Shown piece after piece: positions 12,901-48,900 of a DNA stretch of 64,000 bases. This DNA comes from Saccostrea cucullata (taxonomy: Eukaryota). The stretch lies in assembly GCF_032062105.1 (NCBI RefSeq), contig NW_026936852.1, forward strand, positions 372,001-436,000, given 5' to 3'. Every line of letters starts with the position of its first letter. Within the stretch, counting starts at the first letter, position 1. A program made the position numbers.

Positions 12901-15900
12901 AATGTGATTTAAAAACCTCTTTTGTTTATATTACAAAATCAGCTACTGTCAGTATAAATTTGACAATACAATGCTCATTTCATAACACAGTTTTCTAATA
13001 TATCAAGAGGAGTTCATAAGAATCAGATCACATCCATAAATCACAGAGTTGTCTTTCTTCACTAACAATCCACCATTCAGGTCATGTGACCTTGACTTGA
13101 TTGGTCCACATTTTAGGACGACCCTGGTTGAACTCTCCCGCCCCCTCGGCTTCTTTCTTCTTTGTGTACTCTATCAGGGCATTCATACTGAGGGGTTCCC
13201 ACTGGGATACGTAATCGTAATAACGCCGGTGTCTGCTGGGTATAGGAGCCGACTGGCAGGAAGGACGATCATCTAAAAAATAAAATGGACACAGAGATCA
13301 TAAACATTTTTGTTTTATGTGATTACTTTTCTGAATAAGGTATAGAAATTACAGTATAAAGCCCAATCGCATGGATATGACATCAAATGGATCAAATGAA
13401 ACCATGACTGCACATTAAAAATTTTTCTGCATAAATGATTCAATGGGTAATATACAGACTGAGTTACAATTTCATTTTGAAGTCATCAATCAAACTTTTG
13501 CTTTAAAATGATTGCAAAGTAACCAATAAGCTTTATAAATATCATATCTTCATTAAGCTTTATAAAATACATGTATCACATCATTTTAATTCTGTTTAAC
13601 ACTGAATAGCAAGCAGTAAGGAGAGTTACTCCCCCTACCTTCAGCCATGTCCTCTGTTGTGAGACCCAGCACAGATTTGGACTTTGTAGGAGATGGAAGC
13701 TTATTAGCATTAAATGGGCGGGGAATGTCAGCGTTGTCGTACATATCTCGGAACTTGTCTGTAAAGGTCCCTTTGAAGTTTGTGTCCTCGTCCTTGATGA
13801 AGATGTACTTGGGCTGAGGTTTGTGGTGTTTTCGTCGACTCATCTGTAGAATGACCTCGTCTGTAAACTCCTCCGCCCTCTCTTCCTCCTGTCTCTCCGG
13901 CTCCTCCTCATCTTCTTTGATTGGCTGACTCGTCAGGTCACGATGGCTCTGCTTACCTCCCGTTACCCATTTCATATAATCAGGCTCGGATTCTGCCTGT
14001 AATTTACAAAAATATTTATTTAAATCCTATACCAATCTCTGGACATCTCATGTTTATTTCTATCAACAAGTTATTGCTCTTATAATATCCAACTTCAAAT
14101 TATTTAAGAAAAAAAAATTTATAATGAAAGTATAACAAGGAGAAAATGACATGCCAAATAAGCAAAATGTTCACCTTCAAACAAATTTAATACTCTATGA
14201 TTAAGTGTAACAAAAGTAAGAATTCGGTCCAAAGTTTTCTTAAAACTATGTACACTTTTAGTACTTTTGCAATACATGTAATAACTACTTTATATTAATT
14301 TTTATCATTTAAAAAAAATGTCTCTACGGTAGCCTATTAAACTTCCTATAGGAATAACCTGACTTACAAGGTCATCAATCCAGGAGGGTAGGTACCGCCC
14401 CACCCCGTCCTCTTCGGGGTCTACTGAGGCTACTTCTGGGGGCGGGTTATTGTGAATCAGAATATTGGTTCGGTCTTCGTTGTTTTTAGAAGCTCGGAAC
14501 ATCAGGTCTGTCTTGTGTTTGTAATGTCGTACTCGGGCAGACTTAGAGTGGTCCTGGAGTCTAGCTAACTCTGGAACCTGTGTACAATGAAAATAAATGA
14601 TATGAAAAATAACTTATAATTGTGTTAATACTTATGCTGTTAATTTCTAATTTATAGTTTATTTTAAATTCTTAGAATTTAAAATAAAACTATATAGATT
14701 AATAAGCCAAATTCATTACCGGTATTAACATGCAAATGAGTACAATTTTTGTCACTACATAAACATATTTTCTAATACATGTACACTTGTAAAATTTTGC
14801 TGATTTAAATTTTTTTGAATTTTTTTCGTATAATTTTGTATTGTAATAATCCCTCCACCACAGACAGAGACATGAGTTGCTTACATCTTCCTCTGCACAG
14901 AAAAACCTCTGAACTGGGGGCCGATCCTTTCCTACACTCTCCCGTACAAAGGCCCCAAACGTGTCCTGCCAAGGTCAATAGGTCATGTTACATGTAATTA
15001 AGGTTAATTATATATATACATCATGCAATTCATCAAAGCATCATGCAGTTTCTAATATAATTACATATTAAAAGTTTTTTAAAAAAATTAAATTCATATA
15101 AATAATAAAAATAATTATACATATTTTATTGGTCTTCAAGTTTATTATACAGTTGATTTAAAACATATTAAATGTTGTTCAAAGCATGAGTATGTTACTT
15201 ATTTATTCATTACTGCTTATCTGATTAAATGATACATATATACATTGCAGCTAATTAATAAGTTTAAGCTTTCTGAAATAAGCATGGTTACTGTAAAATC
15301 ACATACTTTCATGGGATTAAATTTTCGTGGTTTGAGTAAAAACTCTTGGTTCGAGGGGATTTGAATTTGTGGATGAAGAATTGTTAAGTAGTTATGTAAC
15401 ATTTTACATTTCATGGTGGACATGAATTTGTGGGTCTCTTTATATCTCAATAAACAATGAAAATTATTAACCCCCCCCCCCTGAAAATTTGTGATTTCCC
15501 AGTAATATAATATAGTACCAATCAGCAGTATAAGTGAAGCTCATAGATTTTCCCTTTCTACCTTTAATTCCTGTGGTATGTGGGCGTCGGCCTTTAGAAG
15601 TCGGATCTGGGATTCATCTCTCAGAGTCTTCAACAGTCTCTCCACCCCAGCTCTACCTGTAAAGGACAAAGTTTGGATCTTGTTTGTATTACATAGCCTA
15701 CAATTGGCAGCGCACACGAATTGCACATTTAGATAGTCAACAAATTATTTCCCTATCTCTGGCTTCACAGATCTCATAGCATCATCTAAGTATTAAACCC
15801 TTGTCAGCATCTACTAGACTAAATCAATCAGAAAAGCTAAATTTTTAGCTTAGCGCATTTCTTAATTAAATCCACAATTAAATCGTACTACTTTAAGGCA

Positions 15901-45900: not shown

Positions 45901-48900
45901 ATTCAGATTTTCATTTATTAGAGATGCAGAAAACGACCGCAGCAGACAAAAGAATGGCAACTTAACATAATTCACAATTGCTGCCGAATTGTGATGATCT
46001 ATAAACTTGTTTTGATGATCAAGTAAGCCCTTTGAGCTAAAGGCCAATGAAATAAGCCAACAGAATGACCCTTAATTCAATTACCCTCCTCCTCGACAAC
46101 ACCAGATCACCCAAGCATTTGGAAATTCCCTGAACAAATAGTTAATTCATTATCCAGCCTAGAATCAATTTCCACCATTCGCTTCTCTGTATAACAAATG
46201 TATAAATCTACTGAATCAATACAAACACTCTAATGGGAAGAAAAAAGTGAAAGCTCAACAGCAATAGACTATATATCTTAGCATTGCCACTATCCCAGCA
46301 CTGAAATCCAGGAACACTATCATCATATCTGTTATACGGCCTCCTCCTGCCTCAATTTATTGCATTCTGTACTTTTGGTGAAATTACCATGTTTAGGCCT
46401 GTGTTCTGTAATTTTTCTCCTTCATAAACAAAAATGATTATGAATTTTTCTTCCCAACAACATGCAGGGTCAAATGCTGTTGCAAGTTATGAAACCAAAT
46501 ATTCTTTCCAGTTTCAGGTACTGAAGAGATTACAACCTTTTCTTCCAGTTAAATCAAATATTACAGTCAACTGAAAGAGACTTTGATCACAGTTTCTTTA
46601 GAATATTATTACTTTATACAGGGTGATAAAAATAAATATTTGAACAATTATTTGAGATTCAAATTAGTAAATGGACATAACCCACATCCCTCCTACCTCA
46701 GCTTCACTGGATTGTCTCCTCTTGTTCTGTCCATTTCCTGGTGAGGATGACCTTTGGTGGAAACCCTCATCTTTGTTGCTATTTTTGGACGAGGACCTCT
46801 TCCCTGGAGATCTGCTTCTGTCGGAGAGTTTTTCTGGGGACCTGTTCCTGGGGGTTATTGGTTCTTGAGGTTTTCTAGAAAGTATTACATATTATTTCCT
46901 TTAGAACATGAGAAGAGCCTCTACAAGAACTTAAATTAATGTAATAACAATGCAATACATGTACAGCAAATAAATACTTGAACATAGTAAACTTGATTTA
47001 GGGTTTTGTTTTTAAAATAAAAATCCTTGAAATAGCCAAAAAGTAAACCTTATCTGTTAAAAAAAAAGTGCTTTGCGTCATATTTATTGCCTCTCCCACC
47101 CACCTCTCGTCCACAGCTGAAAGAACATTGGCCCAAGAACCATAGTATCAATTTTACTTGGCGATATTCAGTATATTTTAACAAATGCCATCAAGTAAAA
47201 TTTGTTAATTATAATAACTAATAAGTCAAATAAAACCATGCATCATTCATTGGTTAATAAGTCAGAAGTTAAATAGATTATCATTAATGGAGAGCAGGCA
47301 ACTTGGACAGGTGATAACACATACATTTTTCATCCAACTTAATTTTACAACATTACACCCTGGTCTGATGAGTGACTGACTTAATTAATTCTTCTCTTTT
47401 TCAGCAGTGCCACAATAAGTCACTGTGACCTAACAAAGTAAAACATTTTTCTAATGTGTGGGGAATGATGCTCAAAAAAATATGCATCATTTGAAGCCCT
47501 ACTATAGCATTTAGAAACTTTATAAAGTGGTTAGGTCTTTGAGGACAATATTTTAGAAACTTTAACATTAGCTAATCAATTAAAAACAAATGGCAATGAT
47601 TGCCAAATTCACAAATTACCTGATTTGATTTACTGTATAAACCTTGTGTAATGAAGTTCAAAATGGGTGAATCAGGGGTAGAAATTCCCTAAAATTGTAT
47701 TTCTCTAGTAATTGTGAGTACCATAAAAATGAACTCTCAATTAAGACAACTTGCAATTTTAAGATGAAAGCTTTTCAAAAATAAACAGCCATCTATCCAT
47801 CTCTTAAAAGACTTTGTAATTTTCAACATGATCAAGGCAAATGCTCATTCATTTTAAAATGGCAGATGTAAACGGTAACTAACGAGAGAAAGACTAAAAC
47901 CGGGTTGAAACGGATGTTTCTTTCCTGGGTAAAAATTACAATGAAAAAATCAACTCGCAAATTTTTGCGGGTTACAAATATTTCAATTTAATTAACTCCC
48001 AATTTGGATATTCTAAACTCTGTTAATTTAATGTAACTTGAATTTTGCATTTCGAACCCTGTGAATACAATTTGATTAATAAATCTAACTTTAAAATTCA
48101 AAGTCACTGAACTTTTTAAAAAGACTTTCTTATTAAAATGTATCATTCTATACATGTATAACAATCTACATGTACACCATGTGTACACACTGCAATAAAA
48201 AATATTCAAATCCTGGCTTGTGATTACTTGAAAATCAAAAAATGTTTATTAATTACTCCATTTCCAACTAAACCAATAAAATGTGTATATGTGGTTCATT
48301 TACTGTATAATCAGGATCACAGGATAAGAACTTATTAAACAAGAAATATACAGAATTGTTGTAATGTCACGTATCATGTTAATTAGTATATTGAACAAAT
48401 TACTGTAGCTCAACTTACAATTTTCATGCTTACATGTACAAACTTTACCATAAATTAAAATATCAAACCAATTATTTATAACAGTTGTTAAGAACAAAGT
48501 TAGTAATTAAATTTCAATAACTTGTTATACATCATTCAACATTCAGCAAACTGAACTGTTAATTTCATCAAACCACTTTCACCTGAATCCACTTCTCTAA
48601 GTCAATAAGCCTGTAAAGTTCAAAGTGTATTAGTTTCTAAATCTATATCTATAATTAAAACTTACACCAAACTTTATTGTAATGAAAGAAATGTCAATTA
48701 AAGATATATTCAGAGTTTCTAGAAAATTCTGGAAGAACATATTTGGTAGAATGGGGTGTGTTGGTTTATTTAATTTTAAAAAGTTTGTAATCCTTTACAT
48801 CAAAATTAAAAATGAACAATTCACAAGGTTAAGGTGGACCACTGAATGCAAAGCTAAGTCATACTATGTTCTTAAACCATGAAGATGACGTATTATACAA

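What the first reader, a model, noticed from the sequence alone, without database searches (positions are those of the whole stretch)
13082..46874. Invertebrate TSGA13-family protein about twice the length of the human protein
Seen: an 11-exon frame-consistent ORF of at least 609 aa. Three blocks in the last ~290 aa (PELA...TDLMF...DRTNILIHNNPPP; YIFIKDEDTNFKG...DMY; WEPLSMNALIE...GEFNQGRPKMW) match recalled human TSGA13 in the same order. The N-terminal part adds an RS-rich segment, a coiled coil and a Pro/Ser linker. Inference: this poorly characterised testis gene is pan-bilaterian (possibly cilia/flagella related), and the vertebrate form lost N-terminal exons.
Basis: partly seen in the sequence, partly recalled or inferred. 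Interest (0 to 1): 0.65.

Follow-up and report, generated by a model that had tools for sequence, protein, structure and literature searches.

The report
Oyster long-form TSGA13 homologue gene
This is a real, already predicted oyster gene whose back half is a distant relative of the vertebrate testis protein TSGA13, and whose extra front half is also found in a sea anemone, so the short vertebrate form is probably the cut-down one; what the protein does is still unknown.

Summary
The gene is real. It lies on the minus strand from 49762 to 13082. It has 10 constitutive coding exons (596 aa), all nine introns are GT-AG, and there is a 48-nt in-frame cassette exon (612 aa with it). It matches the NCBI model 'uncharacterized protein LOC134246736 isoform X2 [Saccostrea cucullata]' letter for letter.

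TSGA13 homology is supported, but it falls below Pfam's cut-off:
- Pfam PF14994 gives 17.4 and 14.5 bits on single exons and 18.6 bits on the database protein; the cut-off is 27.
- An oyster profile aligns with vertebrate TSGA13, including named caecilian proteins, at 99.4% probability (E 2.8e-21, 291 columns).
- A mollusc+cnidarian profile finds the named caecilian TSGA13 at E 3e-22 among 1.84 billion proteins.

Homology starts near residue 230-245, so about 350 aa are shared rather than about 290. The N-terminal helix region is also present in Nematostella, so loss on the vertebrate side is the simpler reading.

No evidence was found for a cilia or flagella role, and none for a canonical heptad coiled coil. 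No solved structure is related. This is an ordinary remote-homology annotation of modest interest.

The parts
49665..49762 (-). Coding exon 1 (98 nt, aa 1-32 plus 2 nt). The ATG is at 49762. Other oysters start at the second Met (codon 6).
   Evidence: tblastn with P0001, 100% over aa 1-33. GT donor; in-frame stop 5 codons upstream of the ATG.
46697..46874 (-). Coding exon 2 (178 nt, aa 33-92). Ser/Arg/Pro-rich, predicted disordered, poorly conserved.
   Evidence: AG/GT; composition; pLDDT 40-50; occupancy 0.24-0.42 in the 66-row alignment.
28594..28758 (-). Coding exon 3 (165 nt, aa 93-147). First part of the long predicted helix. Holds the conserved W101 and the LKDKV.LQ..LI..QD motif shared with Nematostella.
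20859..20931 (-). Coding exon 4 (73 nt, aa 148-171 plus 1 nt). Lys/Glu/Gln-rich continuation of the helix.
18028..18369 (-). Coding exon 5 (342 nt, aa 172-285). End of the helix, then the Pro/Ser/Thr linker, then the first TSGA13 block (LPWHQKQLYQVLGKGADYFLHPK).
   Evidence: This exon alone against the vertebrate TSGA13 alignment A4: probability 93.7%, E 1.8e-7.
16607..16654 (-). 48-nt in-frame cassette exon (16 aa, KRRRQETSDSTFDPLG), flanked by AG and GT. Absent from isoform X2 (P0001). It corresponds to the insert in Crassostrea virginica isoform X1 (P0024).
   Evidence: insert position seen in alignment A2.
15562..15656 (-). Coding exon 6 (95 nt, aa 286-317). TSGA13 block 2 (GRAGVERLLKTLRDESQIRLL...IPQELK).
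   Evidence: Invariant G286, G289, L293, L297, R298, S301 and L305 in A2.
14885..14965 (-). Coding exon 7 (81 nt, aa 318-344, in frame). Skipped in the annotated Ostrea edulis isoform X2 (P0002) and in P0039. In the 66-row alignment the block falls below 60% occupancy in 15 rows, among them the three named caecilian proteins P0116, P0188 and P0189.
14368..14577 (-). Coding exon 8 (210 nt, aa 345-414). TSGA13 block 3 (VPELARL...HKTDLMFRASKNNEDRTNILIHNNPPP...GRYLPSW).
   Evidence: Pfam PF14994 on the open frame alone: 14.5 bits, E 0.022, profile positions 56-121. Against A4: probability 94.1%, E 1.3e-7.
13639..13996 (-). Coding exon 9 (358 nt, aa 415-533). Acidic linker plus block 4 (KYIFIKDEDTNFKGTFTDKFRDMY).
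   Evidence: No Pfam hit. Against A4 only E 0.22, but collinear. F480, G490 and F492 are invariant in the 18-row alignment A2.
13082..13272 (-). Coding exon 10 (191 nt, aa 534-596 plus the TGA at 13084-13082). C-terminal TSGA13 block 5 (WEPLSMNALIEY...GAGEFNQGRPKMW).
   Evidence: Pfam PF14994: 17.4 bits, E 0.0028, profile positions 233-266. Against A4: probability 94.2%, E 1.1e-7.
12751..12756 (-). First AATAAA/ATTAAA hexamer downstream of the stop, about 326 nt after it. Candidate polyadenylation signal (inference only).

Best explanation
Window 49762-13082 (minus strand) holds the oyster orthologue-like relative of the vertebrate gene TSGA13, in a long form of 596 aa (612 aa with the cassette exon).

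Shown:
- The gene structure.
- Its identity with an NCBI Saccostrea cucullata model.
- Homology of residues ~230-596 with named vertebrate TSGA13.
- Presence of the extra N-terminal helix region in other molluscs and in Nematostella.

Predicted by AlphaFold2:
- A disordered basic Ser/Arg-rich head.
- One ~105-residue helix (82-188).
- A disordered Pro/Ser/Thr linker.
- A confidently predicted all-helical module (about 245-390).
- A low-confidence tail in which short conserved motifs (RYLPSW; F-L-T-E..G.F; WEPLS..AL.EY...G.G.F..GR..W) are separated by variable acidic linkers.

Inferred mechanism (about 0.3): a non-enzymatic adaptor. There is no catalytic family hit, no transmembrane or signal feature was noticed, and no fold relative was found. 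The helical module and C-terminal linear motifs would bind partners, and the long helix would space or pair the molecule. By the vertebrate name and human testis data, it would act in male germ cells. Two in-frame cassette exons (48 nt and 81 nt) would tune the helical module.

Evolution (about 0.7): the long form is ancestral to cnidarians plus bilaterians. The vertebrate lineage sampled here lost the head, the helix and the exon-7 block.
For: Gene structure:
- tblastn with P0001 gives ten collinear pieces. They are 100% identical inside the exon bounds; the mismatches lie at piece ends that run past the splice sites.
- 9 of 9 introns are GT-AG, and exon lengths sum to 1791 nt = 597 codons.

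One transcript:
- 16 of the 44 hits are 590-592-aa proteins on 1.9-2.3-kb contigs.
- NCBI models from Saccostrea, Magallana, C. angulata, C. virginica and Ostrea carry both halves.

Homology to TSGA13:
- PF14994 is the only Pfam family hit on single exons and on 3 of 4 oyster database proteins.
- P0043 is 35% identical to the oyster over 380 aa (E 4e-65) and passes PF14994 at 33.9 bits.
- Profile A2 found 434 proteins at E<=1e-3 among 1.84e9. Of the 47 new hits of 300 aa or more, 16 pass PF14994's 27-bit cut-off, 16 more hit it below the cut-off (E<=0.01), and 15 do not hit it.
- One hit, P0116 (E 3e-22, Pfam 96.2 bits), is NCBI 'testis-specific gene 13 protein [Rhinatrema bivittatum]'.
- hhalign of 6 oysters against 7 vertebrate-type sequences: 99.4%, E 2.8e-21, 291 columns, oyster 229-591 against 58-353. 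BLASTP P0001 against P0116: E 8e-12.
- The window's own exons 5, 8 and 10 each match at E ~1e-7, in order.

Ancestral long form:
- Nematostella P0044 aligns with oyster residues 92-589.
- 30 of 66 aligned relatives carry the helix region.
- On a quick tree, the 8 rows that include the named caecilians form one clade (SH-aLRT 98), and all 8 lack the helix region.

Architecture: AlphaFold2 runs.

Human testis link: a passage in PMC12132964 lists TSGA13 among genes down-regulated in non-obstructive azoospermia.
Against: - Pfam's curated cut-off is not reached: exons 17.4 and 14.5 bits; P0001 18.6; P0002 15.6; P0024 21.4; P0006 no hit. Among 14 non-oyster relatives, 8 show no TSGA13 hit at E<=1 and only 1 passes the cut-off.
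- Nothing here bears on tissue, location or partners in the oyster.
- pTM is low (0.33 and 0.38), so the packing of the helices is uncertain.
- 36 of 66 relatives lack the helix region.
- The tree is the quick search, not the finished careful one, and has many long branches.
Confidence: 0.8

Rival explanations
1. It is a cilia/flagella (axoneme-associated) protein. The long helix and short motifs would lie along microtubules, as in microtubule inner or associated proteins.
For: - The vertebrate relative is named testis-specific (name).
- A human passage links it to germ-cell content of the testis.
- The family occurs in animals with flagellated sperm, including a cnidarian.
- The pattern of extended, low-pTM helices plus linear motifs is compatible with this.
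- The nearest atlas clusters are testis or cilia proteins (C10orf120, CIMIP4/TEX33, CCDC60), but at 0.76-0.80. The tool says shuffled proteins reach that range a third of the time.
Against: - No chain of any solved structure matches by sequence profile, including the axoneme and doublet-microtubule entries in the PDB copy. At E<=10 only two low-complexity hits appeared.
- No fold match: best E 4.4 and 2.8.
- No X-box-like site within about 1.3 kb upstream of the ATG. There is one degenerate match at 51109, against a window density of 0.44 per kb.
- No paper in the searched library links TSGA13 to cilia.
Confidence: 0.2
2. The N-terminal head and helix were gained in protostomes and cnidarians, or gained repeatedly, and the short vertebrate form is the original.
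For: 36 of 66 aligned relatives lack the helix region, and they are scattered over the quick tree. Lys/Glu/Gln-rich helices can align by composition alone.
Against: - The oyster-Nematostella alignment is one composition-adjusted BLASTP segment from residue 92 to 589. In the helix part it shares specific residues (W101, H113, LKDKV.LQ..LI..QD).
- The same motif is conserved in bivalves and gastropods.
- The N-terminal-only hits that I checked (9 of 9) are closest to named molluscs, so they are mollusc fragments rather than a separate gene elsewhere.
Confidence: 0.1
3. Two neighbouring genes were merged. Exons 1-4 would belong to another transcript, and the TSGA13-like gene would start in or near exon 5.
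For: Introns 2 and 3 are very long (17.9 kb and 7.7 kb by the exon coordinates). The conserved core starts only at about residue 244.
Against: - Reading frames join across all nine GT-AG introns.
- 16 unnamed full-length ORFs of 590-592 aa lie on contigs of 1.9-2.3 kb.
- The same arrangement is seen in Mytilus, Dreissena, Littorina, Lymnaea and Nematostella proteins.
Confidence: 0.03
4. The likeness to TSGA13 is chance similarity of short motifs in a low-complexity protein.
For: All Pfam scores for oysters are below the cut-off and rest mostly on a 34-residue C-terminal motif.
Against: - Five collinear blocks over 291 aligned columns at hhalign E 2.8e-21.
- E 3e-22 for a named TSGA13 in a search of 1.84e9 proteins.
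- An unbroken chain of intermediates, 16 of 47 of which pass Pfam's cut-off.
Confidence: 0.02

Closest known systems
Vertebrate TSGA13 (Pfam PF14994, 'Testis-specific gene 13 protein'), e.g. the NCBI-named Rhinatrema bivittatum protein P0116 (365 aa)
   Same: Five collinear blocks are shared:
- LP.H..LY..LG..A..FL.P
- GA..LW..LR..S..KL
- RHK..LMYRAS..N.DKT.IL..NNPLP...RYL
- F(L/I).E.....G.FS
- WEPL(S/T)..AL.EY....G.G.F..G....W
hhalign gives 99.4%, E 2.8e-21.
   Different: - The oyster protein has about 240 extra N-terminal residues: a Ser/Arg-rich head, a ~105-residue helix and a Pro/Ser/Thr linker.
- It has the 27-aa exon-7 block that the vertebrate-type sequences lack.
- It has a longer acidic linker.
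- It scores only 18.6 bits on PF14994 against a cut-off of 27.
NCBI 'uncharacterized protein LOC134246736 isoform X2 [Saccostrea cucullata]' (P0001) and its oyster orthologues (Magallana gigas, C. angulata, C. virginica LOC111107993, Ostrea edulis LOC125653965)
   Same: Identical to the window's ten exon translations. The orthologues are 81-86% identical to P0001 in alignment A1.
   Different: None for P0001. The databases give these proteins no family name and no precomputed Pfam domain. Other isoforms add the 48-nt cassette or skip exon 7.
Nematostella vectensis protein named 'reticulocyte-binding protein homolog 2a' (P0044, 515 aa)
   Same: Same long architecture. It aligns with the oyster from the helix (residue 92) to the C-terminal WQPLS...W motif (E 1e-29, 26% identity over 513 columns).
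   Different: - No Ser/Arg-rich head, and only a weak N-terminal motif.
- No PF14994 hit at E<=1.
- I take its database name to be an automatic label prompted by the charged helix, not a functional finding (inference).

Membership tests
TSGA13 (Pfam PF14994) | Score at or above Pfam's curated gathering cut-off (27 bits) | tested here: not met
   - Exon frames: 17.4 bits (E 0.0028) and 14.5 bits (E 0.022); the other four exon frames give no hit.
- Database proteins: P0001 18.6, P0002 15.6, P0024 21.4, P0006 none.
- PF14994 was nevertheless the only family reported for them.
- The window's joined exon model was not scanned.
TSGA13 (Pfam PF14994) | Significant profile-level match to proteins that are named TSGA13 and pass the Pfam cut-off | tested here: met
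   - Profile A2 hits P0116 at E 3e-22 (95.7 bits) among 1.84e9 proteins.
- P0116 is NCBI-named TSGA13 of Rhinatrema and scores 96.2 bits on PF14994.
- hhalign A1 against A4: 99.4%, E 2.8e-21.
TSGA13 (Pfam PF14994) | Conserved blocks present in the same order along the protein | tested here: met
   - Exons 5, 8, (9) and 10 map to A4 columns 57-102, 160-208, (256-279) and 318-353.
- Pfam profile positions 56-121 and 233-266 are in the same order.
- Blocks 1-5 are occupied in 63-65 of 66 aligned relatives.
TSGA13 (Pfam PF14994) | Chain of intermediate sequences linking the oyster protein to family members | tested here: met
   - P0043: 35% identical to the oyster (E 4e-65) and 33.9 bits on PF14994.
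- Lymnaea stagnalis P0054: 31.4 bits.
- 16 of the 47 long hits pass the cut-off.
TSGA13 (Pfam PF14994) | Testis or male germ-cell restricted expression, the property the gene is named after | not testable with these tools
   No expression data for the oyster are at hand. No paper mentions the oyster loci.
TSGA13 (Pfam PF14994) | One-to-one orthology rather than paralogy | tested here: inconclusive
   The quick tree groups bivalves (99), gastropods (99), molluscs (90) and the caecilian-containing clade (98) as taxa would. No second mollusc lineage was seen. However, most rows are unnamed and the careful tree search did not finish.
Canonical heptad coiled-coil proteins | Heptad a/d hydrophobic periodicity above chance | tested here: inconclusive
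   A long helix is predicted at 82-188. The best 28-residue window has 5 of 8 a/d positions hydrophobic, and 185 of 500 shuffles reach that. The same holds in three relatives. This was a crude test of my own, not a standard predictor.

The most novel reading that the evidence does not exclude
TSGA13 is not a vertebrate testis novelty. It is the truncated remnant of a ~500-600-aa protein that already existed in the cnidarian-bilaterian ancestor, with a long N-terminal helix and a helical core. The in-frame exon 7 that bivalves can skip is the same block that the vertebrate form has lost for good. The ancestral job was in flagellated sperm or other ciliated cells.
Probability: 0.35. Interest if true: 0.4.

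Novelty: new member of a known kind. Interest (0 to 1): 0.25.

Why it matters
It gives a family name to a set of mollusc and cnidarian proteins that the databases call 'uncharacterized' or, in Nematostella, name misleadingly. It also shows that the almost unstudied vertebrate gene TSGA13 has an older and longer form. Oysters and sea anemones, with external fertilisation and easily collected sperm, could then be used to find out what the protein does. It changes no general view: this is a remote-homology annotation, and the function stays open.

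Tried and rejected
- Self-pairing of the helix (complex prediction, residues 85-190, two copies). The verdict was 'no answer' (score 0.00, mark 0.32, controls not run). It counts neither for nor against.
- Heptad test. Not above shuffles.
- PDB by sequence with profiles A1 and A2. Nothing at E<=1 for A1. For A2 at E<=10, only TATA-box-binding protein (poly-Q) and ensconsin (charged helix), which are compositional.
- PDB by fold with both models. 0 matches at E<=0.001; best E 4.4 and 2.8.
- ESM Atlas, whole protein and residues 244-596. 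Best scores were 0.78 and 0.80, in the range the tool gives for shuffled proteins. No TSGA13 cluster was returned.
- X-box/RFX-like motif scan (consensus recalled). 28 degenerate matches in 64 kb, and only one (51109) within 49000-52500.
- The listing of cluster members for organism names of ten unnamed relatives.
- The last homologous-protein search, with the mixed alignment A3. It returned only 4 proteins because candidates were capped at 8000. It gave the caecilian and Lymnaea names but no wider taxon list.
- Literature:
  - 'TSGA13': 36 papers, none with the term in title or abstract among the 25 listed.
  - TSGA13 plus testis: 9 papers, all lists or map positions.
  - Full gene names: 3 papers.
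  - Oyster, mussel and Dreissena locus numbers: 0 papers.
  - Mixed six-term search: only one paper held TSGA13.
- Synteny. The passages read in PMC1865561 place human TSGA13 beside COPG2, KLF14 and MKLN1. The only neighbour identified in the window is a protein-kinase gene, so no synteny argument can be made.
- The careful tree search did not finish in 283 s, so the quick tree was used.

Full report
**What is there.** A search with the frame at 13586-14026 returned 25 oyster proteins. The best was NCBI 'uncharacterized protein LOC134246736 isoform X2 [Saccostrea cucullata]' (P0001, 596 aa). tblastn of P0001 on the window gave ten collinear minus-strand pieces; the mismatches lie at piece ends that run past the splice sites. 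Reading the splice sites gave these coding exons:
- 49762-49665
- 46874-46697
- 28758-28594
- 20931-20859
- 18369-18028
- 15656-15562
- 14965-14885
- 14577-14368
- 13996-13639
- 13272-13082

All nine introns are GT-AG, and the lengths sum to 1791 nt, which is 596 codons plus the stop. A 48-nt exon at 16654-16607 (AG/GT, frame-preserving) encodes the 16 residues that Crassostrea virginica isoform X1 inserts at the same place. With it the protein is 612 aa in 11 coding exons. I take the window to be Saccostrea cucullata or a near-identical genome. It is not human, and no contig was taken for human.

**How the model was searched.** Where a whole protein was needed I used database proteins returned by the tools, above all P0001, which equals the window's exons.

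**One gene or two.** Oyster models from five species carry both halves. In one search, 16 of the 44 hits are unnamed proteins of 590-592 aa that lie on contigs of 1892-2306 nt. In the window the same coding sequence is spread over 36.7 kb, so such contigs must be intron-less, meaning they derive from spliced messages (inference). Mussel, Dreissena, unionid, gastropod and Nematostella proteins have the same order of parts.

PF14994 gives 17.4 bits (E 0.0028, profile 233-266) on the last exon and 14.5 bits (E 0.022, profile 56-121) on exon 8; the other four exon frames give no hit, and the cut-off is 27. Whole oyster database proteins reach 18.6, 15.6 and 21.4 bits, and one has no hit at all. 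Among 14 non-oyster relatives, 6 show PF14994 at E<=1 and 1 (P0043, 33.9 bits) passes.

Stronger tests settle it:
- A profile of 18 mollusc, P0043 and Nematostella sequences (A2) found 434 proteins at E<=1e-3 among 1.84 billion, 212 at <=1e-10 and 47 at <=1e-30.
- Among the 143 new proteins in the 150 listed, I scanned all 47 of 300 aa or more. Of these, 16 pass the PF14994 cut-off, 16 hit it below the cut-off and 15 do not hit it. The 96 shorter ones were not scanned. They are fragments, and anything of 240-300 aa might be a mammalian, possibly human, TSGA13, so I left those unused.
- One hit, P0116 (E 3e-22; Pfam 96.2 bits), is NCBI 'testis-specific gene 13 protein [Rhinatrema bivittatum]'. 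Two more named caecilian TSGA13 proteins and a Lymnaea stagnalis protein came with it.
- hhalign of six oysters (A1) against seven vertebrate-type sequences (A4: three named, four unnamed that pass Pfam) gives 99.4%, E 2.8e-21. It covers 291 columns, oyster 229-591 against 58-353. Plain BLASTP gives E 8e-12.
- The window's own exons 5, 8 and 10 each match A4 at E 1.1-1.8e-7, in order. Exon 9 does not on its own (E 0.22), but it aligns at the collinear site.

So the homology is real.

**The extra parts and their history.**
- Residues 1-243 (exons 1-4 and the start of exon 5) have no counterpart in the caecilian proteins.
- AlphaFold2 with a 66-row alignment predicts disorder for residues 1-80 and one helix at 82-188 with pLDDT above 90. 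It predicts disorder again for 190-243, a confident helical module at about 245-390, and a low-confidence tail with short helices. Mean pLDDT is 67.9 and pTM 0.33. A second run on P0043 gave the same module.
- The helix region is conserved in bivalves and gastropods.
- The helix region also aligns with Nematostella as part of one segment from residue 92 to 589 (E 1e-29), with specific shared residues.
- In the 66-row alignment, 30 rows have the helix region and 36 do not. The 81-nt exon-7 block is present in 51 rows and absent in 15, including all caecilian-type rows and two bivalve isoforms.
- On a quick maximum-likelihood tree, the eight rows that include the named caecilians form a clade (SH-aLRT 98) and all lack the helix region. 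Molluscs group together (90). The careful search did not finish and many branches are long.
- N-terminal-only hits (9 of 9 checked) are closest to named molluscs, so they are fragments rather than a separate gene.

With a cnidarian as outgroup, loss on the vertebrate side is the simpler reading.

**What it does.** Nothing here shows it.
- No enzyme family, no solved relative by sequence and none by fold.
- Atlas leads are at noise level.
- The heptad test is not above shuffles, so 'long helix' is safer than 'coiled coil'.
- There is no X-box-like site near the 5' end.
- The literature held in the library treats TSGA13 only as a map marker or list entry. I read passages of PMC1865561, which covers gene order beside COPG2, KLF14 and MKLN1. 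I also read passages of PMC12132964, where TSGA13 is one of eight genes down-regulated in non-obstructive azoospermia. For the other papers I saw only search listings. No paper mentions the mollusc loci.
- Supplementary tables of knock-out screens, sperm proteomes and cilia lists were closed and could hold more.

My best guess, at about 0.3, is a non-enzymatic adaptor of male germ cells. It would bind partners through the helical module and the C-terminal linear motifs, with the helix as spacer or pairing element. A flagellar or ciliary location is possible (about 0.2) but unsupported.

**Verdict.** This is a correct and careful reading by the first stage on the main point (a TSGA13 relative with a real N-terminal extension). 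The 5' end, the exon count, the extent of homology, the taxonomic depth (Cnidaria) and the coiled-coil label need correction. It is a new, divergent member of a known, poorly studied family, and its interest is modest.

Noticed in passing
window 61147-62297 (-): Two open frames encode consecutive parts of a Ser/Thr protein kinase domain (Pfam PF00069: 161.7 bits for profile 12-172, and 55.7 bits for profile 171-263). By recall the motifs look PAK/STE20-like. This is the neighbouring gene upstream of the TSGA13-like gene, on the same strand.
   Followed up: partly
window 5830-7099 and 11260-12237: Two arrays of one 63-bp unit (also scored as 189/188-bp periods; 19.6 and 14 copies, 82-84% matches). 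By eye their consensus units are reverse complements of each other, and the unit is itself partly palindromic. The arrays lie about 4.2 kb apart, just 3' of the gene, and might be the ends of a large mobile element.
   Followed up: partly
window 26101-27310: A tandem array of a 147-bp unit (8.3 copies, 88% matches) inside intron 3 of the gene. It produces the series of similar short ORFs seen on both strands.
   Followed up: no
window 42256-42683: A 28-bp minisatellite (15.1 copies, 90% matches) inside intron 2.
   Followed up: no
window 2934-3336, 4857-5141 and 52699-53254: Short arrays (2-4 copies) of 139-146-bp units whose consensus starts look related to each other, in both orientations. 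Probably one dispersed repeat family on both sides of the gene.
   Followed up: no
window 55169-55525 (-): A 118-aa open frame with an F-R-Y-I-D-D stretch that recalls the reverse-transcriptase active-site motif (recalled). It gave no Pfam hit at E<=0.001, so this is only a hint of a decayed retroelement.
   Followed up: partly
protein P0056 (825 aa, unnamed representative): It carries ArfGap, ankyrin and GIT_SHD domains in front of a TSGA13-like C-terminus (29 bits). This is either a merged gene prediction of two neighbours or a real fusion. It was left out of the alignments.
   Followed up: no
window 14885-14965 (-) and relatives: The in-frame 81-nt exon 7 is skipped in the annotated Ostrea edulis isoform X2 and in P0039. 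The same block is missing from all vertebrate-type TSGA13 rows. In the model it forms half of helix 314-329 plus the following loop.
   Followed up: partly
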